From contig NYZP01000023.1 of NCBI GenBank assembly GCA_002687175.1, positions 1-50,038 of the forward strand: DNA of 50,038 bases, in the 5' to 3' direction. This DNA comes from Parcubacteria group bacterium. Lineage in GTDB: Bacteria; Patescibacteriota; Patescibacteriia; Buchananbacterales; UBA6539. Below, piece by piece: positions 12,870-37,566 of the stretch. The notes below the pieces were generated by a model, which was not told the DNA's origin, made no database searches, and saw only the letters and a list, made by a program, of their open reading frames with translations. Made by a program: the position numbers and the translations under genes. Positions within the stretch are counted from its first letter, which is position 1; each line of letters begins with the position of its first letter.

Positions 12870-13100
12870 AAAAAGAGGCCACCAAACCACGAAGATTGCG
12901 CTGCTGCAGCGCGAGCGATAGACAACTGCCCCCTGGCTGTATACCCGTGGGGTACGGGAAAAAAGAACGGTTAAATAAGGGAGTGCGGAGGCAGCCGGAA
13001 CATCTTTCTTTGCAGGTTCACGGCCAACGTTAAGGCCGGAGGAAAAGATGCAGGAACGGCTGCCTCCACAAAAAAGGAATGGTGATAAAGAACTACAGGT
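12870..13100 (-). ncRNA. candidate structured RNA B, unknown family
   Basis: G+C-rich block in an AT-rich spacer. A long hairpin pairs ggaggcagccg with cggctgcctcc and has nested catcttt/aaagatg and ggcc/ggcc stems. An upstream promoter-like site lies at 13107-13134, and a minus-strand T-run lies at about 12868-12874. Confidence 0.35.
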
Positions 13101-13815: not shown

Positions 13816-13890
13816 AATTGGGTACCCAACAAAATGTTCGGTACCATGTTCTAATAGTTTTAATGTATCATCTTTAATCTCAATTCTTGT

Positions 13891-17290
<3,400 letters not shown>

Positions 17291-18721: not shown

Positions 18722-18809
18722 TGGTGCCGGGAACAGGAATCGAACCTGCACAGGATTACTCCTACTTGGTCCTAAACCAAGCGCGTCTACCTAGTTCCGC
18801 CATCCCGGC
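18722..18809 (-). tRNA. tRNA-Leu(UAG), class II, CCA encoded
   Basis: GCCGGGATGGCGGAACTAGGTAGACGCGCTTGGTTTAGGACCAAGTAGGAGTAATCCTGTGCAGGTTCGATTCCTGTTCCCGGCACCA. The anticodon loop is TTTAGGA. Confidence 0.9.
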
Positions 18810-18994: not shown

Positions 18995-19282
18995 ATGCGA
19001 ATATTTTATGTTTACATAATTACTAACAAAACTAATCACGTCTTTTATATTGGAATCACTAATGATTTAATCAAACGAACCTTTGAACACAAAAGCAAAA
19101 TAAATCCAGGCTTCACGAATAAATACAACGTCAACAAATTGGTTTATTTTGAAGACTTCCTGAGCCCCTATGAAGCAATTAGACGAGAAAAAGAAATTAA
19201 GGGTTGGCTAAGAAAGAAAAAAATTAAACTAATCAGGGCTAACAATCCTGCCTATATTGATTTATCGCAAGACTGGTACTGA
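18995..19282 (+). CDS. GIY-YIG nuclease family protein
   Basis: 95 aa with FYVYIITNK...VFYIGITNDLIKRTFEHK...EAIRREKEIKGW. Confidence 0.85.
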   Translation: MRIFYVYIITNKTNHVFYIGITNDLIKRTFEHKSKINPGFTNKYNVNKLVYFEDFLSPYEAIRREKEIKGWLRKKKIKLIRANNPAYIDLSQDWY

Positions 19283-19383
19283 GATCCTTCATTCGTCCCG
19301 CAGTCGCGGGACTCCTTCAGGATGACAGGCCCTCTGGGTTTGTCATCCTGAGGCAGGTCGCCAAAGGCGACCAACGAAGGATC
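19283..19383. repeat. 101-nt multi-hairpin palindromic element
   Basis: Outer stem gatccttc...gaaggatc. Inner hairpins are tcccgcagtcgcggga, ttcaggatgaca...tgtcatcctgagg and gtcgccaaaggcgac. Confidence 0.7.
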
Positions 19384-19426
19384 TCTGAATCTAATCAACA
19401 AACGTTAATTATTAACAAACAAGTCT

Positions 19427-32511: not shown

Positions 32512-32566
32512 TTTCAAACCTAAATCTAACCCAATCAAAAGTTCTGAAACTGTCCCGTATGCCACA
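32512..32566. repeat. direct repeat R2
   Basis: tttcaaacctaaatctaacccaatcaaaagttctgaaactgtcccgtatgccaca. Confidence 0.85.
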
Positions 32567-32569
32567 CAA

Positions 32570-32815
32570 TTTAGAACTTTTCCCAATGCGCGTCGCTCCG
32601 CGACGAATTCAGACGGAACTGGTGCGCCGAAGCGCGCGGATTTGTCACGAACCAAGGGGTTCGTTCCAAACTTTTTGACGAAGGAGCTGATTTCCTTTAA
32701 ATCTGCGGATGATGTCAAAAAGTTGGCTTGCGCCGACCCGAACGAAGTCGCAAAACGCCGTAGCGGAAGCGACACCACATAAGCAGAGATGAAAACGAGG
32801 AGAGGGGTTGTGCGA
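32570..32815 (-). other. G+C-rich, hairpin-dense block of unknown nature
   Basis: The composition contrasts sharply with the flanks. Minus-strand hairpins are GCGCGC-UUCG-GCGCAC, ACGAACC-CCUU-GGUUCGU and CGUCGC-GGA-GCGACG. Confidence 0.4.
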
Positions 32816-33056
32816 GACAAAGTTCTCCTTCAACCCCAGGGGCACGACATCTAGGACAATTCATAGGTAGTGTTTCCTTAGGTTTCACCTCATCATCTTT
32901 AGGTTTTGATATTACTCTAAGACACTTTTGACAAAGTTCTCCTTCAACCCCAGGGGCACGACATCTAGGACAATTCATAGGTAGTGCTTCTGAGTCCTCA
33001 TTATCATCAGCTAAATCAAAATTTTCAATACCTCCACTGATTTCTCTGCTTATCAT
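32715..33056 (-). CDS. small zinc-ribbon protein with internal duplication; 3' end uncertain
   Basis: MISREISGG...LPMNCPRCRAPGVEGELCQKC...LPMNCPRCRAPGVEGELC, after which the frame runs into the G+C-rich block. Confidence 0.4.
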   Translation of the reverse strand: MISREISGGIENFDLADDNEDSEALPMNCPRCRAPGVEGELCQKCLRVISKPKDDEVKPKETLPMNCPRCRAPGVEGELCLAQPLSSFSSLLMWCRFRYGVLRLRSGRRKPTF

Positions 33057-33139: not shown

Positions 33140-33219
33140 TTCTCAAACCTAAGTTTTACCCAATTAAGAGTTCTGAACCCTTCGACTTCGCTCAGGGCAG
33201 GCGTGTCCCGTATGCCACC
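33140..33219. repeat. direct repeat R3 (with a 25-nt G+C insert)
   Basis: ttctcaaacctaagttttacccaattaagagttctgaac[ccttcgacttcgctcagggcaggcg]tgtcccgtatgccacc. Confidence 0.8.
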
Positions 33220-33245
33220 TGGTAAAACTTTAATTGTAGCCTAAA

Positions 33246-33899: not shown

Positions 33900-35342
33900 C
33901 TATTTTTTTAAACGCTTGCGCAGCTTAGTGTGGGATTCTTGTAGGGCGGTCATTAAATTACTTTCATCAATTAAACTGTGAACTCTATTTGATATTATAA
34001 ATTGTCCGTCAATCATTAAGTCCCGAATATTTCTTCCACCATGGGTAATCATGTTTCCAACTAGGCTAACAGGATTACTTTCATTGTATGGCATGAATCC
34101 CCGGTCGCGCAGCTTCCAAAATGACAGATCAGCTTTATAGCCCGGCATAATTTTTCCTAACTTTTCCAGCTTTAAAATATTGGCCGCCTGAGAAGTCATC
34201 ATTTTAAATAGATCTTCATAGTTTACACGGTGGGTGGCATTGTGCATAATCCGTGCTTGCAAGGCTTCAGACAAAAGATCCAAACTATTTTTGGAAATAA
34301 CGCTGTCAGTACCTAAACAAATCTGTTTGTCCGCTTTATATTTTACGAATAAGGGATATTTAAAATTACCACTTTTGTGAAGCTTATTGGAAGTTGGCAA
34401 ATGAACAATGCCAATTTTGTGTTTTTTTACCAGTTTAATTTCTTCATCGGAAAAATGAACGGCGTGAGACAAAATTGTATTGGAATTAGCCAGACCTAAA
34501 TCTACCAAAGCTTCAACGGTTCTCTTACCATATTTCTCTACACACTGCTGAACCCATTCTTCATTTTCCGCACTGTGCAAGGTAAGTAAAACTTTATACT
34601 TTTTAACCAGCTGTTTTATTTTCTTTAATTGATCTGGTGAAGCCCGATGAACATAATGAATTGAAATCGCCGGTTGAGAAAAATAATTTTTTCTTTTTGC
34701 TAAAATTTTGGCCACCATCTCTGGCGAATTTTTTGGGTGGGAATTAGATACTGCTGAAATGGCGTTAATCACCCGTTGCCTAGTTAACTTAGCTGCCTCT
34801 TCAACCGGATCAAAGACTCCGTAATGACTCAAAGTGGTAGTAATGCCATACTTTTGTTCTTCGGTAAAATCGCCAACCGCCCCCAGAAAAAAATCTTGAT
34901 TATTCATCTTAGCCTCCAACTCTGCCATTTTTTTTACCTGATCAACCACATTACCTTTATCTAAAGTCATTGAAGAACGCAAAAGATACATCGGTGGATG
35001 AGCATGGGCATTAATAAACCCGGGGGTGACTACAATACCACTTCTTTTTGAGGCATCGTAAATTAGATCAATCTTATTTATCGGAATGGATTTTTTATTT
35101 ACCGGAAACACCTCTTTAATTTTACCGTCCACAATATAGATGGAACGATTCGCTTGAACTTGAAGTTTATTTTTAGAATCAGTAGTGATGACAAATGTTG
35201 CCCCATGAATTAAGATTCTCTTTACTTTTTTGGGATGACCCAGGGCAGTATACCTACTGCGATTCTTACGCTTGGCATCATAATCAACCTCTTCACTTAA
35301 AATATCAGTGATAGTTTTATTCTTTTTAATATTAGCATTCAT
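33900..35342 (-). CDS. amidohydrolase-family metal-dependent hydrolase (deaminase-like)
   Basis: 480 aa with the GFINAHAHPPMY HxH motif. Confidence 0.75.
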   Translation of the reverse strand: MNANIKKNKTITDILSEEVDYDAKRKNRSRYTALGHPKKVKRILIHGATFVITTDSKNKLQVQANRSIYIVDGKIKEVFPVNKKSIPINKIDLIYDASKRSGIVVTPGFINAHAHPPMYLLRSSMTLDKGNVVDQVKKMAELEAKMNNQDFFLGAVGDFTEEQKYGITTTLSHYGVFDPVEEAAKLTRQRVINAISAVSNSHPKNSPEMVAKILAKRKNYFSQPAISIHYVHRASPDQLKKIKQLVKKYKVLLTLHSAENEEWVQQCVEKYGKRTVEALVDLGLANSNTILSHAVHFSDEEIKLVKKHKIGIVHLPTSNKLHKSGNFKYPLFVKYKADKQICLGTDSVISKNSLDLLSEALQARIMHNATHRVNYEDLFKMMTSQAANILKLEKLGKIMPGYKADLSFWKLRDRGFMPYNESNPVSLVGNMITHGGRNIRDLMIDGQFIISNRVHSLIDESNLMTALQESHTKLRKRLKK

Positions 35343-35380
35343 ATTTTTATATTAACTTAAATTTATGATATAATCAATTT

Positions 35381-35542
35381 ATGACTGTTAAATTAAGTGA
35401 CGTAATTCCTAAAGGAGATTTTGTCAAAATCGGTATACTGATAATAATTTCGGTTATTTGCTGGGTTTGGGTTTGGCGGGAATACCAAAAACCCATTATT
35501 CCTCCGGAATGGGAACAACAACTAAAAGCCGAGAACGTCTAA
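35381..35542 (+). CDS. small membrane protein (53 aa), not in the ORF track
   Basis: MTVKLSDVIPKGDFVKIGILIIISVICWVWVWREYQKPIIPPEWEQQLKAENV. TGATATAAT lies just upstream and a terminator lies downstream. Confidence 0.4.
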   Translation: MTVKLSDVIPKGDFVKIGILIIISVICWVWVWREYQKPIIPPEWEQQLKAENV

Positions 35543-35556
35543 ATTATAAAATAAAC

Positions 35557-35588
35557 AAAAAAGATCCCCTGTCTGGGGATGTTTTTTA
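35557..35588. terminator. bidirectional intrinsic terminator
   Basis: A-run, then atcccc tgtct ggggat, then gtttttt. Confidence 0.65.
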
Positions 35589-35636
35589 ATGGAGCGGGCC
35601 GCCAAAGGCGAGCCTCGCTTCTTAATAAAAATGTAA

Positions 35637-35711
35637 TGGAGCGGGTGACCGGATTCGAACCGGCGATCTCTTCCTTGGCAAGGAAGCATTCTACCACTGA
35701 ACTACACCCGC
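35637..35711 (-). tRNA. tRNA-Gly(GCC), CCA encoded
   Basis: GCGGGTGTAGTTCAGTGGTAGAATGCTTCCTTGCCAAGGAAGAGATCGCCGGTTCGAATCCGGTCACCCGCTCCA. Confidence 0.92.
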
Positions 35712-35753
35712 TTGGGTAAATTAGTATATTGATTTTAATGAATAGCTTTGTCA

Positions 35754-35823
35754 TGATAGCTTCCTTGATAAGGAAGCATTCGGACCCTGTCCCGATGGAT
35801 ATCGGGGACTGAACTACACCCGC
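35754..35823 (-). pseudogene. tRNA-Gly 5'-half look-alike G1 (anticodon-position triplet ATC)
   Basis: GCGGGTGTAGTTCAGT[CCCCGATATCCATCGGGACAGGGTCC]GAATGCTTCCTTATCAAGGAAGCTATCA. No T-arm or 3' acceptor strand follows. Confidence 0.75.
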
Positions 35824-35866
35824 AAAATATGAATAAATAAACTAATTGTAACAAATTGCTTAATAA

Positions 35867-35936
35867 TGATGGCTTCCTTAGTAAGGAAGCATTCGGACCC
35901 TGTCCCGATGGATATCGGGGACTGAACTACACCCGC
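35867..35936 (-). pseudogene. tRNA-Gly 5'-half look-alike G2 (triplet ACT)
   Basis: Same architecture and the same 26-nt insert as G1. The anticodon loop is TTACTAA. Confidence 0.75.
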
Positions 35937-35979
35937 TGGGGTTTAATAAAATATACAATTGAAATGAATAGATTAAGGA

Positions 35980-36058
35980 TGATAGCTTCCTTGGCAAGTA
36001 AGCATTCGGACCCTGTCCCGATGGCGATCGGGAACTGAACCAACCAAATCATGCCCGC
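35980..36058 (-). pseudogene. tRNA-Gly 5'-half look-alike G3 (triplet GCC, degenerate acceptor)
   Basis: GCGGGCATGATTTGGTTGGTTCAGTTCCCGATCGCCATCGGGACAGGGTCCGAATGCTTACTTGCCAAGGAAGCTATCA. Confidence 0.65.
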
Positions 36059-36105
36059 TTGAGCTACAAAAAACAGTATAGCAAAAATAATAAAAAAATC
36101 AAGTG

Positions 36106-36567
36106 CTAGTTCCTTAGTTGGTATAAAGCAATACCAGCAGCCGTCGCAACGTTCAATGAATCTTTTTTACCCAGCATTGGTATGGTAATTATGTCATCAG
36201 CTAATTCAATGGTACTCTGATTAACACCAGTAAGCTCATTACCAACAATCAAGGCAAGAGGAAATTTTGGCTTAAATTTTGGTAAAGCTTTATTTTTCTC
36301 ACCAGTCTCTAAAACAACAATTTTAACACCTTGCTTCTTTAATTTTTTTATTAAAGTATTGGTCTGTCGTTTTCGCTCCCAATCTATCCACTCCTCTGCT
36401 CCTAAAGCGGTTTTAGAAATTTGATCTCGTGGCGGAAAACCAGTATAACCACAGAGATAAATTTTGGTAACATCAAAAACATCAGCTGTCCGAAACATCG
36501 AACCGACATTGAACAGACTCCTAACATTTTGTATAATTAAATAAATTTCCTTTTTCTTTATTGACAT
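36106..36567 (-). CDS. SPOUT (SpoU/TrmH-TrmL-like) RNA 2'-O-methyltransferase
   Basis: 153 aa with NVGSMFRTAD, LIVGNELTG and SLNVATAAGIALY. Confidence 0.8.
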   Translation of the reverse strand: MSIKKKEIYLIIQNVRSLFNVGSMFRTADVFDVTKIYLCGYTGFPPRDQISKTALGAEEWIDWERKRQTNTLIKKLKKQGVKIVVLETGEKNKALPKFKPKFPLALIVGNELTGVNQSTIELADDIITIPMLGKKDSLNVATAAGIALYQLRN

Positions 36568-36623
36568 ATAGACTTTTTTATCTTAATATAATTAACGATT
36601 GTCGACAAGAATACCTGCCCTTT

Positions 36624-36680
36624 CAGTTAACTCGCCGTAGACAGCTTTGCTGTCGACACGCTGGACTTAAAGATTTAGTT
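36624..36680 (+). pseudogene. tRNA-Leu(UAA) 5'-half look-alike L2 (decayed)
   Basis: ...cagttaact[cgccgtagacagctttgctgtc]gacacgctggacttaaa|gatttagtta. Confidence 0.55.
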
Positions 36681-36750
36681 AGATATGTTTAATCAAGGTC
36701 AGTAAAGATAGCCGAAGGCAGATATACAAAGCAAAAAAATCAGTAACTAT

Positions 36751-36797
36751 GCCCAGGTGATTGGAACTCGCCGAAGGCGGACACGCTGGACTTAAAG
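36751..36797 (+). pseudogene. tRNA-Leu(UAA) 5'-half look-alike L1
   Basis: gcccaggtgattggaact[cgccgaaggcg]gacacgctggacttaaa. It diverges from the true gene after the anticodon. Confidence 0.7.
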
Positions 36798-36811
36798 ATT
36801 TAGTTAAACAT

Positions 36812-36899
36812 GCCCGGGTGGTGGAACTGGTAGACACGCTGGACTTAAAATCCAGTGGATGTATAATCCGTGCGGGTTCGAGTCCCGCCCCGGGCACCA
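36812..36899 (+). tRNA. tRNA-Leu(UAA), class II, CCA encoded
   Basis: GCCCGGGTGGTGGAACTGGTAGACACGCTGGACTTAAAATCCAGTGGATGTATAATCCGTGCGGGTTCGAGTCCCGCCCCGGGCACCA. Confidence 0.9.
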
Positions 36900-36917
36900 A
36901 TTAATAACTGTAAATAT

Positions 36918-37139
36918 ATGTCTGAAAAAAACAATGGGGGAAGAGGCTCCGAATACCACGGCCCTGAAGATAAAATTCCTGAAGGTTTGGAAGAAGGTAT
37001 TGATGGCCTTCTTGATAAAGCTAAAACTAGTGAAGCTGGCAAAGAAACCCCGGAAAAAGAAATGACCGAGCTTGAGTTTAAAGTTGACCAAAGGGTTTGG
37101 ATGTTAAGAAATAATAAAGGGAAAAAAGGGTCTATCTAG
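36918..37139 (+). CDS. acidic hypothetical protein, possibly the 5' part of a frameshifted gene
   Basis: MSEKNNGGRGSEYHGPEDKIPEGLEEG.... The ATG at 36918 lies after the tRNA; the ORF-track start at 36870 lies inside the tRNA. Confidence 0.45.
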   Translation: MSEKNNGGRGSEYHGPEDKIPEGLEEGIDGLLDKAKTSEAGKETPEKEMTELEFKVDQRVWMLRNNKGKKGSI

Positions 37140-37246
37140 ATTTTGGTTGGACAATAACCGAAATAGATGATGATAAAATTATTGCAACAAAGAAAAATCT
37201 TGGTCCTGAAGGTGGTAGATTTAAAAAAGATAAAACAAGACAAGAG

Positions 37247-37486
37247 ATGATAGATATTCAAAATTTAGAAGGAGATTTTGACATTGACGAAGAAGCGGTT
37301 GAAAAAGAAATTTTATTTTTAGATGAAGATAGAATAGCTAAAAATATTGACTGGAAATCGGCAGTAATAATGGAAAAAGATGGAATAACAGAATACGCTG
37401 AGACGGATAAACGACAATATATGGAAGAGAATCAACGAAGAAGATCGCAACTGGTTAAATTGCTAGAAAAAAATAACCCAACTTAA
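37247..37486 (+). CDS. hypothetical protein; its frame is open upstream to 37118
   Basis: The -1 frame relative to 36918..37139 is open from 37118, and the overlap contains an A6 run (37122-37127). Confidence 0.45.
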   Translation: MIDIQNLEGDFDIDEEAVEKEILFLDEDRIAKNIDWKSAVIMEKDGITEYAETDKRQYMEENQRRRSQLVKLLEKNNPT

Positions 37487-37566
37487 CAAGTTACTAGAAA
37501 ATTAATAAGTTACAAAAAATAACCTGCTTAAGGTTGTTTTTTTATGCCTAAAAATGTAAGATAAAG

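What the first reader, a model, noticed from the sequence alone, without database searches (positions are those of the whole stretch)
35588..36058. Regular 113-nt array of three tRNA-Gly 5'-half look-alikes with a hairpin replacing D-loop GGTA and varied anticodon triplets
Upstream of the intact tRNA-Gly(GCC) lie three units at 35754, 35867 and 35980, exactly 113 nt apart. Each reproduces tRNA positions from 1 to about 43: the acceptor 5' strand, the D-stem and the whole anticodon arm.

In every unit the D-loop GGTA (G18/G19 region) is replaced by the same 26-nt insert, CCCCGATATCCATCGGGACAGGGTCC. This insert contains a CCCGAT/ATCGGG hairpin.

Homology stops right after the anticodon stem, with no variable loop, T-arm or 3' acceptor. 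The anticodon loops read TTATCAA, TTACTAA and TTGCCAA, against TTGCCAA in the real gene. The AT-rich spacers are also related (tgaata motif), so the whole 113-nt unit is tandemly repeated.

Downstream of the real tRNA (35590-35625) is a G+C hairpin followed by a copy of the 3' end, CCCGCTCCA.

Integration scars normally duplicate 3' parts of tRNAs, not 5' halves with a precise D-loop substitution. I do not know a described element with this architecture. Possible readings are decoy or regulatory tRNA-half RNAs, remnants of serial gene replacement, or a tRNA-targeting mini-element.
Basis: partly seen in the sequence, partly recalled or inferred. Interest (0 to 1): 0.7.

Follow-up and report, generated by a model that had tools for sequence, protein, structure and literature searches.

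The report
Hairpin-substituted tRNA-half copies before tRNA genes
In a marine Patescibacteria genome, the transcribed leaders of two tRNA genes carry tandem copies of the tRNA's own 5' half in which the D-loop is replaced by a G+C hairpin; these are most likely leftovers of recombination driven by selfish elements at tRNA genes, though a function is not ruled out.

Summary
Three units lie upstream of tRNA-Gly(GCC) on the minus strand. Each is tRNA positions 1-16, a 26-nt hairpin insert in place of GGTA, then positions 22-43. The array is identical in two independent metagenome assemblies.

It is not unique:
- tRNA-Leu(TAA), 750 nt away, has two to three 5'-half copies whose D-loop GGTA is also replaced by a G+C hairpin.
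- At the same locus, relatives range from a single clean tRNA-Gly, through a full-length pseudo-tRNA, to a tRNA split in the T-loop. One has the mirror image: tandem tRNA-Lys 3' halves with a hairpin in place of the T-arm.
- The GTCCCG...CGGGAC hairpin recurs near tRNA genes and follows both small GIY-YIG nuclease ORFs in the data.

Best reading (0.5): pseudo-tRNA fragments made by mobile-element or nuclease-driven recombination, then amplified in tandem. They are carried in the pre-tRNA leader and have no function of their own.

One result argues against plain decay. U1 and U2 are 94% identical while their spacers are 57% identical (p = 2.5e-6). A functional leader RNA (0.22) therefore stays open.

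I class it as a new variant of a known kind.

The parts
36075..36102 (-). Promoter-like site (TTGATT, 16 nt, TG-TATACT) directly after the SpoU stop codon and upstream of U3.
   Evidence: Consensus scan. The same TTGnnT-17-TGCTATAAT element is conserved at this position in 8 related loci (alignment A5).
35986..36058 (-). Unit U3, the most diverged copy. It has a 9-nt insertion after GCGGG, an insert variant TCCCGATCGCCATCGGGACAGGGTCC (36033-36008), a mismatch in the anticodon stem, and triplet GCC.
35873..35936 (-). Unit U2: tRNA-Gly 1-16, then the 26-nt insert (35920-35895), then the D-stem 3' strand and anticodon arm. Triplet ACT.
35760..35823 (-). Unit U1: tRNA-Gly 1-16, then the 26-nt insert (35807-35782), then the D-stem 3' strand and anticodon arm. 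Triplet ATC.
35712..35759 (-). Spacer S1, AT-rich. S2 (35824-35872) and S3 (35937-35985) are its homologues at about 57-63% identity. S1 aligns with the trailer and spacer that follow the pseudo-tRNA in relative L011.
35637..35711 (-). Intact tRNA-Gly(GCC) with encoded CCA.
   Evidence: ARAGORN. Rfam 72.6 bits.
35590..35622 (-). Remnant of a tRNA-Gly 3' end. It reads AAGAAGCGA, then the hairpin TCGCC-TTT-GGCGG in the T-arm position, then CCCGCTCCA.
   Evidence: Read from the sequence. Comparable 3' fragments lie downstream of tRNA-Gly in L009, L014, L049 and L019.
35564..35580 (-). Intrinsic terminator-like hairpin with a T-tract, which would close the transcription unit. It is bidirectional.
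36106..36567 (-). SpoU-family 2'-O-methyltransferase gene (153 aa), lying between the two arrays. It served as the synteny anchor.
   Evidence: Pfam PF00588, 116.6 bits. NCBIfam best partial matches are RlmB and TrmH, all below the curated cutoffs.
36561..36589 (+). Promoter-like site (TTGACA, 17 nt, TAATAT) upstream of the tRNA-Leu array.
36617..36679 (+). Unit L2 of a second array. It reads GCCCTTTCAGTTAACT, then the insert CGCCGTAGACAGCTTTGCTGTC, then GACACGCTGGACTTAAAGATTTAGT (tRNA-Leu 22-38 plus a degenerate 3' stem strand).
36693..36745 (+). Degenerate middle unit (L1.5) that keeps the CCGAAGG hairpin core.
   Evidence: Direct-repeat family D2, 70% identity. Alignment A4.
36751..36811 (+). 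Unit L1. It reads GCCCAGGTGATTGGAACT, then the hairpin CGCC-GAA-GGCG in place of D-loop GGTA, then GACACGCTGGACTTAAAGATTTAGT, then TAAACAT. It abuts the real gene.
36812..36899 (+). Intact tRNA-Leu(TAA).
18995..19282 (+). Small GIY-YIG nuclease ORF (95 aa), 186 nt from tRNA-Leu(TAG) at 18722-18809 (minus strand).
   Evidence: tblastn with the Pfam-confirmed GIY-YIG of L009. ORF listing.
19281..19386 (+). G+C-rich, cloverleaf-shaped four-way junction immediately after the GIY-YIG ORF. Its side arms are GTCCCGC-AGTC-GCGGGAC and GGTCGCC-AAA-GGCGACC. These are the same two hairpin types as those substituted into the pseudo-tRNA pieces.
   Evidence: MFE -75.2 kcal/mol, z = -10. No Rfam family at the gathering threshold.

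Best explanation
The three units are non-functional pseudo-tRNA-Gly fragments that sit in the transcribed leader of the tRNA-Gly gene.

Proposed sequence of events:
1. Inferred: in an ancestor, recombination at the tRNA gene produced a second, upstream copy of tRNA-Gly. The recombination was probably set off by a small tRNA-associated selfish element, a GIY-YIG nuclease gene followed by a hairpin-rich tRNA mimic.
2. Shown by comparison with relatives: that upstream copy acquired a G+C hairpin in place of the D-loop G18/G19 segment.
3. Inferred: it then lost its 3' half.
4. Shown for the repeat itself; the mechanism, unequal or break-induced recombination, is inferred: in this lineage the roughly 113-nt block (pseudo 5' half plus spacer) was amplified in tandem to three copies.
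5. Inferred: today the array is transcribed from the conserved promoter as part of the pre-tRNA-Gly leader. It is removed when RNase P matures the tRNA.

The same process acted on the neighbouring tRNA-Leu(TAA) gene.
For: Not conserved, and every stage is seen.
- The same SpoU-promoter-tRNA-Gly locus is a single clean gene in L018, L047 and L052.
- L009 has a full-length pseudo-tRNA with a hairpin for the T-arm, followed by the real gene.
- L011 has a pseudo-tRNA with a D-loop insert at the identical site that shares GGACAGGGTYC with the window insert.
- L016 has only a tiny remnant.
- L049 and L014 have a gene split in the T-loop by a cassette carrying another tRNA-Gly.
- L019 has a 5' fragment with a 52-nt D-loop insert.

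Recurrence.
- A second array of the same design lies at tRNA-Leu(TAA) in this window.
- L018 has a mirror-image array of tRNA-Lys 3' halves with the hairpin TCCCGACGAGTCGGGA in place of the T-arm.
- L026 and L027 have further partial copies.

Link to an element.
- The CCCGA...TCGGG hairpin occurs 9 times in 275 kb of loci, against 1.95 in shuffles. Eight of the nine lie within 310 nt of a tRNA gene.
- Both GIY-YIG ORFs in the data set are followed within 15 nt by a GTCCCG...CGGGAC hairpin.
- In L009 the ORF runs straight into a hairpin-substituted tRNA-Gly 3' end.

Precedent. The GIY-YIG homing endonuclease SegB cleaves phage tRNA genes at RAWTSGAAC, which is the T-loop sequence. It drives recombination-dependent tandem segmental amplification (PMC13096335).

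Position in the leader. The promoter is conserved in 8 relatives. The first GCGGG always follows it, so the array lies inside the transcription unit.
Against: - U1 and U2 are 67/71 identical while their spacers are 24/42 identical (Fisher p = 2.5e-6). Neutral fragments of equal age should have diverged equally. This needs gene conversion, repeated acquisition, or selection.
- The tRNA-derived parts of U1 and U2 are 100% identical to the resident tRNA outside the triplet. In L011 and L009 the pseudo-copy likewise tracks its own genome's tRNA. This means concerted evolution or constraint.
- No GIY-YIG gene lies at the Gly or Leu(TAA) arrays in this window.
- The small (86-95 aa) GIY-YIG proteins have only the catalytic domain. 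Nothing shows they cut tRNA genes.
- I cannot give a step-by-step mechanism that puts a hairpin at the G18 site.
- Only about ten informative relatives were available.
Confidence: 0.5

Rival explanations
1. Functional leader RNAs. The units are cut out of the pre-tRNA leader as stable two-hairpin small RNAs. These would act as regulators, or as decoys for proteins that bind the 5' half or anticodon arm of the cognate tRNA, such as a modification enzyme, a synthetase, or a tRNA-cleaving toxin or defence nuclease. This would resemble the RtT RNAs released from the E. coli tyrT operon.
For: - The U1/U2 sequence is conserved far above the spacers (p = 2.5e-6).
- Of the substitution events separating U1 and U2 from the resident sequence, three fall in the 3-nt hairpin loop. 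I inferred these events from the three triplets. Stems and insert are untouched. The calculation actually run, for at least 4 of 5 changes in 3 of 71 positions, gives p = 1.5e-5.
- The units track the resident tRNA sequence in each genome.
- They lie in a transcription unit with a conserved promoter and a terminator.
- The same design is found at two tRNA genes.
- RtT is a precedent for repeat RNAs released from tRNA operons (PMC4986893).
Against: - The array is absent from close relatives with clean loci.
- Copy number and form differ in every lineage. U3, L1.5, the L011 pseudo-copy and the L016 remnant are visibly decaying.
- Folding z-scores of single units are unremarkable, -1.5 to -1.9.
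- There is no Rfam match.
- No partner gene is consistently linked.
Confidence: 0.22
2. Plain slippage or unequal-crossover duplication of the promoter-proximal part of the tRNA gene, followed by ordinary decay. No mobile element or nuclease is involved, and the hairpins are incidental insertions.
For: - A partial tandem duplication with one end in the leader and one inside the gene gives exactly '5' fragment, then spacer, then intact gene'.
- Tandem repeats carrying tRNA ends are known at E. coli tyrT (own knowledge; the RtT context is).
- L049 has a tRNA-Leu 5' fragment without any hairpin.
Against: - Insertions at the same D-loop site arose in at least two independent founding events, Gly and Leu, and probably a third in L019.
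- The hairpin types are shared with the structures that follow GIY-YIG ORFs.
- G+C-rich segments should decay fastest in a 36% G+C genome, yet they are the best conserved parts.
Confidence: 0.15
3. Scars of serial integration and excision by integrase-type elements that use the tRNA gene as their attachment site.
For: - Partial tRNA genes next to intact ones are the classical footprint of integrated elements (bioRxiv 10.1101/2022.07.05.498093).
- L026 and L027 show textbook direct repeats, from the T-loop to the 3' end, flanking small G+C-rich inserts.
- The window's own CCCGCTCCA remnant may be of this kind.
Against: - The copies are 5' halves, only about 45 nt apart, with no room for an element.
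- All three share one derived insert and one truncation point, so they are duplicates of one another and not successive displaced host halves.
- No integrase gene is near.
Confidence: 0.05

Closest known systems
SegB-type (GIY-YIG) homing-endonuclease-driven segmental amplification at phage tRNA genes (PMC13096335)
   Same: - A GIY-YIG nuclease gene lies next to tRNA genes.
- Breaks occur inside tRNA genes. In L049 and L014 the tRNA is split within GGTTCG|AATCC, which is the SegB motif.
- The result is tandem ladders of a short segment containing tRNA sequence.
   Different: - The setting here is a cellular Patescibacteria genome, not a phage.
- The nucleases are 86-95 aa, catalytic domain only, and untested.
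- The amplified unit holds a dead 5' half with a hairpin in place of the D-loop, not a working tRNA.
- No nuclease gene lies at this particular array.
Partial tRNA genes left by integration of mobile elements (att-site duplications; bioRxiv 10.1101/2022.07.05.498093)
   Same: A partial copy of a tRNA gene sits beside the intact gene. 3' fragments of this classical kind do occur in related loci (L026, L027).
   Different: - Classical scars are 3' parts, separated from the gene by a kilobase-scale element.
- Here the copies are 5' halves in a tight, regular array inside the leader, each with an internal loop-for-hairpin substitution.
E. coli tyrT operon repeats and RtT RNA (Rfam RtT family; PMC4986893 citing Bosl and Kersten 1991)
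   Same: Tandem repeats that contain a piece of the neighbouring tRNA, are co-transcribed with it, and are released during tRNA processing.
   Different: - The tyrT repeats lie downstream and carry the tRNA 3' end (own knowledge).
- There is no loop-substituting hairpin.
- There is no sequence or Rfam similarity.
Archaeal split, permuted or multi-intron tRNA genes (PMC3218864)
   Same: tRNA genes interrupted at non-canonical positions, including the D- and T-loops. 5' halves are encoded apart from 3' halves.
   Different: - This is a bacterium.
- There are no matching 3' halves and no bulge-helix-bulge motifs.
- ATC and ACT would be A34 anticodons, which bacteria hardly use.
- An intact tRNA-Gly is present, so nothing needs assembling.

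Membership tests
Canonical tRNA gene | A complete cloverleaf with a T-arm and a 3' acceptor strand, detectable by tRNA finders. | tested here: not met
   ARAGORN and Rfam call only 35637-35711. None of the units is called, even at E <= 10. Homology ends after the anticodon stem.
Integrase att-site scar (partial tRNA duplication by an integrated element) | A direct repeat of the tRNA 3' part, from the crossover in the anticodon loop or T-loop to the 3' end, flanking an integrated element. | tested here: not met
   The units are 5' parts (positions 1-43) separated by 42-48-nt spacers. No element or integrase lies between or beside them.
Integrase att-site scar (partial tRNA duplication by an integrated element) | Each fragment is an independently displaced piece of a once-functional gene. 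| tested here: not met
   All three units share the same derived 26-nt insert and the same truncation point, so they are copies of one pseudo-copy.
Homing-endonuclease-driven segmental amplification (SegB-like) | A GIY-YIG endonuclease gene adjacent to the amplified tRNA segment. | tested here: inconclusive
   No GIY-YIG ORF lies at the Gly or Leu(TAA) arrays. One lies 186 nt from tRNA-Leu(TAG) in the window, and one directly after tRNA-Gly in relative L009. L016 has remnants of one.
Homing-endonuclease-driven segmental amplification (SegB-like) | The endonuclease cleaves inside tRNA-gene DNA. | not testable with these tools
   There is only indirect evidence. The split point in L049 and L014 lies within the T-loop motif GGTTCG|AATCC, which matches the SegB motif RAWTSGAAC.
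Homing-endonuclease-driven segmental amplification (SegB-like) | Head-to-tail repeats of a short segment that includes tRNA sequence. | tested here: met
   TRF period 113, score 399. L018 has a 59-nt array.
RtT-like RNAs of tRNA operons | Match to the Rfam RtT covariance model. | tested here: not met
   No such hit in cmscan at E <= 10 on 34500-37500, nor at the gathering threshold on the whole window.
RtT-like RNAs of tRNA operons | Repeats co-transcribed with the tRNA and released as discrete RNAs. | not testable with these tools
   Promoter and terminator positions are compatible. No expression data are available.
Split or intron-containing tRNA (archaeal type) | A complementary 3' half elsewhere and bulge-helix-bulge splice motifs. 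| tested here: not met
   The window has no 3' halves other than one remnant without a T-arm. The insert forms a simple bulged hairpin.

The most novel reading that the evidence does not exclude
Patescibacteria may carry a previously undescribed class of tRNA-gene-associated modules. These would be tandem arrays of tRNA-half mimics in which the D-loop (5' halves, upstream) or the T-arm (3' halves, downstream) is replaced by a conserved G+C hairpin. They would be evolutionarily tied to small GIY-YIG nucleases and maintained by selection. Possible roles are nuclease-resistant 'immune' copies, homing arms of a selfish element, or processed leader RNAs that decoy proteins recognising the cognate tRNA.
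Probability: 0.3. Interest if true: 0.8.

Novelty: new variant of a known kind. Interest (0 to 1): 0.6.

Why it matters
Partial tRNA genes are usually written off as integration scars. Here they have a regular, recurring anatomy:
- The copy is a 5' or 3' half of the neighbouring tRNA.
- One of the two loops that form the tRNA elbow is exchanged for a tight hairpin.
- The copies form tandem arrays.
- The arrays lie inside the transcription unit.
- The pattern is seen at several tRNA genes and in several Patescibacteria lineages.

If selfish nucleases drive this, it would extend tRNA-gene targeting and segmental amplification by GIY-YIG enzymes from T-even phages to the tiny genomes of ultra-small bacteria. 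That would explain part of their unusual RNA-gene architecture.

If the units are functional RNAs, they would be a new kind of tRNA-mimic leader.

Either way, annotators should expect such pseudo-halves next to tRNA genes in these genomes. They break short-read assemblies.

Tried and rejected
- Searching public DNA for the insert. The 19-mer ATCGGGACAGGGTCCGAAT gave 0 hits in viral contigs. It gave 3 hits in metagenome contigs, all chance matches inside unrelated high-G+C coding sequence with no tRNA nearby.
- Genome-collection scan with a SpoU alignment. It returned only one close relative (L018) and two intermediate ones. The rest were too distant to be informative.
- Closest relatives by amidohydrolase identity (P0002, P0005). 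Their contigs end before the tRNA or have a different neighbourhood.
- Rfam. No family matches the units, the G+C-rich cloverleaf-like element or the spacers.
- Dispersed REP-like hairpin family. A hairpin census of the window found no dispersed copies of the insert hairpin.
- Spacers as promoter copies. Similarity of the spacers to the promoter region is only marginal (z 1.5-1.9), and no spacer passes the promoter scan. I make no claim here.
- GIY-YIG relatives in viral contigs. There was one weak partial hit and nothing usable.
- Split or trans-spliced tRNA, CRISPR-like array, type III toxin-antitoxin RNA array. All rejected. There are no 3' halves, no cas or toxin genes, the spacers are homologous to each other, and an intact tRNA and terminator follow directly.
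- Mis-assembly. Rejected by two identical independent assemblies.
Full report
**1. What is there**

The window comes from a marine Patescibacteria (candidate phyla radiation) genome close to Candidatus Buchananbacteria. Its G+C content is about 36%. Source names of homologues are, and identical contigs come from TARA and JGI marine samples.

tRNA-Gly(GCC) lies on the minus strand at 35637-35711. Upstream on that strand, Tandem Repeats Finder reports a 113-nt period (2.5 copies, 84% matches, score 399).

Read on the minus strand, each unit has three parts:
- GCGGGTGTAGTTCAGT, which is tRNA positions 1-16.
- A 26-nt insert, CCCCGATATCCATCGGGACAGGGTCC, in place of GGTA.
- GAATGCTTCCTTNNNAAGGAAG, which is the D-stem 3' strand and the whole anticodon arm.

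An AT-rich spacer of 42-48 nt follows each unit. The triplets are ATC (U1), ACT (U2) and GCC (U3). The insert occurs nowhere else in the window, and shuffles expect none.

It differs from the others at 3 insert positions, has a 9-nt insertion after GCGGG, and has a mismatch in the anticodon stem.

Downstream of the gene lies a remnant: AAGAAGCGA, the hairpin TCGCC-TTT-GGCGG, then CCCGCTCCA. A terminator follows.

The 566-nt region is identical in two independent assemblies (L004, L005). Three other assemblies end inside the array. So the array is real and not a mis-assembly.

**2. It lies in the transcribed leader**

A promoter-like site (TTGATT, 16 nt, TG-TATACT) lies at 36102-36075, between the stop codon of a SpoU-family methyltransferase gene and U3.

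The same element (TTGnnT, 17 nt, TGCTATAAT) sits directly after the SpoU gene in eight related loci. In all of them the first GCGGG follows it by 16-40 nt (alignment A5). In relatives with a clean locus, that GCGGG is the start of the real tRNA.

By inference, the window's array is transcribed as a roughly 350-nt leader of pre-tRNA-Gly and ends at the terminator at 35580-35564.

**3.

tRNA-Leu(TAA) lies at 36812-36899 on the plus strand, 750 nt away and transcribed divergently. It is preceded by a promoter-like site at 36561-36589 and by two to three copies of its own 5' half.
- L1 (36751-36811) reads GCCCAGGTGATTGGAACT, CGCC-GAA-GGCG, GACACGCTGGACTTAAAGATTTAGT.
- The real gene reads GCCCGGGTGGTGGAACT, GGTA, GACACGCTGGACTTAAAATCCAGT.

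So here too the D-loop GGTA is replaced by a G+C hairpin, and the copy stops after the anticodon arm. L2 (36617-36679) has a longer insert at the same site. A degenerate copy lies between L1 and L2.

L1 and L2 share derived changes, as U1-U3 do. Each array therefore grew from a single founding pseudo-half.

**4. What relatives show**

I fetched the same locus from relatives, using the neighbouring amidohydrolase and SpoU proteins as anchors.

| Locus | State of the tRNA-Gly locus |
|---|---|
| L018, L047, L052 | A single clean tRNA-Gly right after the promoter |
| L009 | A full-length pseudo-tRNA-Gly with hairpin TCCAGATGAAATCGGGA in place of the T-arm, then the real gene, then an intact 86-aa GIY-YIG ORF (Pfam 74 bits). 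The ORF's 3' end runs into AGAGATCG-TCCCGATGAAATCGGGA-TCACCCGC, a second tRNA 3' end with the same hairpin for its T-arm. |
| L011 | A pseudo-tRNA-Gly with a 23-nt insert at exactly the window's site. The insert shares GGACAGGGTYC with the window's. The rest of this copy is degenerate. |
| L016 | Only a stub upstream, and remnants of the GIY-YIG start and hairpin downstream |
| L049, L014 | A CCA-ending tRNA-Gly split in the T-loop (GGTTCG\|AATCC) by a cassette: another complete tRNA-Gly between inverted repeats of about 20-30 nt |
| L019 (SpoU 58% identical) | A 5' fragment with a 52-nt insert at the same D-loop site, and a 5' fragment upstream of its tRNA-Leu |

Elsewhere:
- L018 has the mirror image of the window's array. 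At least three 59-nt tandem units lie downstream of tRNA-Lys(CTT). Each is GCAAACGGTCG, the hairpin TCCCGACGAGTCGGGA in place of the T-arm, then CTGCGCCCACCA.
- L026 and L027 show classical direct repeats, from the T-loop to the 3' end, around small G+C-rich inserts.

The structure is therefore lineage-specific and fast-changing. It is one form of a wider pattern of partial tRNA copies with loop-substituting hairpins.

**5. Link to a small nuclease gene**

- The motif CCCGA...TCGGG occurs 9 times in 275 kb of non-redundant loci, against 1.95 in shuffles. Eight of the nine lie within 310 nt of a tRNA gene.
- The only two GIY-YIG ORFs in the data set are each within 200 nt of a tRNA gene. Each is followed within 15 nt by a GTCCCG...CGGGAC hairpin.
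- In the window, the GIY-YIG ORF at 18995-19282 is followed by a very stable cloverleaf-shaped element at 19281-19386 (MFE -75 kcal/mol, z = -10). Its side arms are GTCCCGC-AGTC-GCGGGAC and GGTCGCC-AAA-GGCGACC.
- These are the two hairpin types found in the D-loop position of the Gly units, the D-loop position of the Leu units, and the T-arm position of the Gly 3' remnant.

Known biology offers a mechanism of this kind. The GIY-YIG homing endonuclease SegB cuts phage tRNA genes at RAWTSGAAC, the T-loop sequence. It drives recombination-dependent tandem amplification of a tRNA-containing segment (PMC13096335).

**6. Most likely explanation, and its weak point**

I read the units as pseudo-tRNA fragments. 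They would have been created by element- or break-driven recombination at the tRNA gene, then triplicated, and are now carried passively in the leader (confidence 0.5).

*Shown:*
- The homology of the units to one another and to the L011 pseudo-copy.
- The variability of the locus among relatives.
- The recurrence of the hairpins near tRNAs and GIY-YIG ORFs.

*Inferred:*
- Involvement of the nuclease.
- The amplification mechanism.
- Co-transcription of the array and its removal by RNase P.

The weak point is conservation:
- U1 and U2 are 67/71 identical while their spacers are 24/42 identical (p = 2.5e-6).
- Outside the triplet, their tRNA-derived parts equal the resident tRNA.
- The pseudo-copies in L009 and L011 likewise match their own genome's tRNA.

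This needs gene conversion, repeated acquisition of a constrained element part, or selection on the units.

The triplet changes are all transitions. I infer three events from the three triplets: a shared G>A, then one C>T in each of U1 and U2. In the isolated unit the triplet is simply the 3-nt loop of an 8-bp hairpin. The pattern 'stem fixed, loop free' therefore fits either a maintained hairpin or a deamination-prone loop. It does not indicate designed anticodon diversity. The Leu units show no such variation.

**7. Rivals**

- Functional leader RNAs or decoys (0.22). This explains the conservation. It fits poorly with absence from close relatives and with the visible decay of U3, L1.5 and the L011 and L016 copies.
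- Plain duplication and decay without any element (0.15). This does not explain repeated hairpin substitution at the same D-loop site in independent founding events. It also does not explain the sharing of hairpin types with structures next to GIY-YIG genes.
- Integrase scars (0.05). This fails on anatomy: 5' halves, no room for an element, and one shared derived insert.
- Split or trans-spliced tRNAs, CRISPR-like arrays and toxin-antitoxin RNA arrays were rejected (section 1).

**8. Novelty**

Three things are already known: partial tRNA genes beside intact ones, repeats with tRNA ends in tRNA operons (RtT), and nuclease-driven amplification at tRNA genes.

I found no description of tandem tRNA-half copies with a D-loop or T-arm replaced by a hairpin, in Patescibacteria or elsewhere. 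I class it as a new variant of a known kind. There is a 0.3 chance that it is a maintained, previously undescribed module.

Noticed in passing
window 36561-36899 (+): A second array of the same design lies at tRNA-Leu(TAA). It has two to three 5'-half copies with D-loop GGTA replaced by a CGCC-GAA-GGCG-type hairpin, directly after a promoter-like site.
   Followed up: yes
window 18995-19386 (+): A small GIY-YIG ORF (95 aa) lies 186 nt from tRNA-Leu(TAG). Two ATCAACATAGCGC hairpins precede it. A very stable cloverleaf-shaped G+C-rich element follows it (MFE -75 kcal/mol, z = -10) and has no Rfam family. A related structured element lies at L033 3053-3160 and inside the L027 insert.
   Followed up: partly
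L009 3818-3920; L011 1172-1275; L016 713-815; L018 3020-3112; L049 3077-3222: In relatives, the real tRNA-Gly has a leader and trailer that are complementary to each other. The pairing is 9-12 bp in most and about 20-30 nt in L049. The sequences differ between species but always pair, which extends the acceptor stem. These genes lack an encoded CCA. The window's gene has CCA and no such pairing. This may be a processing stalk or the inverted ends of a mobile tRNA cassette.
   Followed up: partly
L018 1990-2270 (-): A tandem 59-nt array lies downstream of tRNA-Lys(CTT). Each unit is the variable-region segment, a hairpin in place of the T-arm, and the 3' acceptor strand with CCA. Part of the array is masked as N in the record.
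   Followed up: partly
window 13889-17290 (-): The 23S rRNA gene spans 3402 nt against a 2925-position model, so it carries roughly 480 nt of insertion, as is common in these bacteria.
   Followed up: no
window 36106-36567 (-): The SpoU-family methyltransferase lies exactly between the two arrays. Some sources name its homologues tRNA G18 2'-O-methylase (TrmH). The units lack precisely the G18/G19 segment. This may be coincidence. The protein is below every NCBIfam cutoff (best partial matches RlmB and TrmH).
   Followed up: partly
window 32715-33056 (-) and 32540-32570 / 33160-33225: A short ORF has an internal repeat (PMNCPRCRAPGVEGELC, twice). Two intergenic copies of AGTTCTGAA...GTCCCGTATGCCAC flank this region. 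Their nature is unknown.
   Followed up: no
window 12886-13100: A G+C-rich intergenic stretch with long complementary segments (GGAGGCAGCCG...CGGCTGCCTCC) lies next to the 5S rRNA gene. It has no Rfam match at the gathering threshold.
   Followed up: no
L049 2405-2500 (-): Upstream of tRNA-Leu(TAA) is a 27-nt 5' fragment of a different tRNA-Leu allele (GCCCGGG...) from the resident gene (GCCGCGG...). This suggests that the gene was replaced by an incoming allele.
   Followed up: partly
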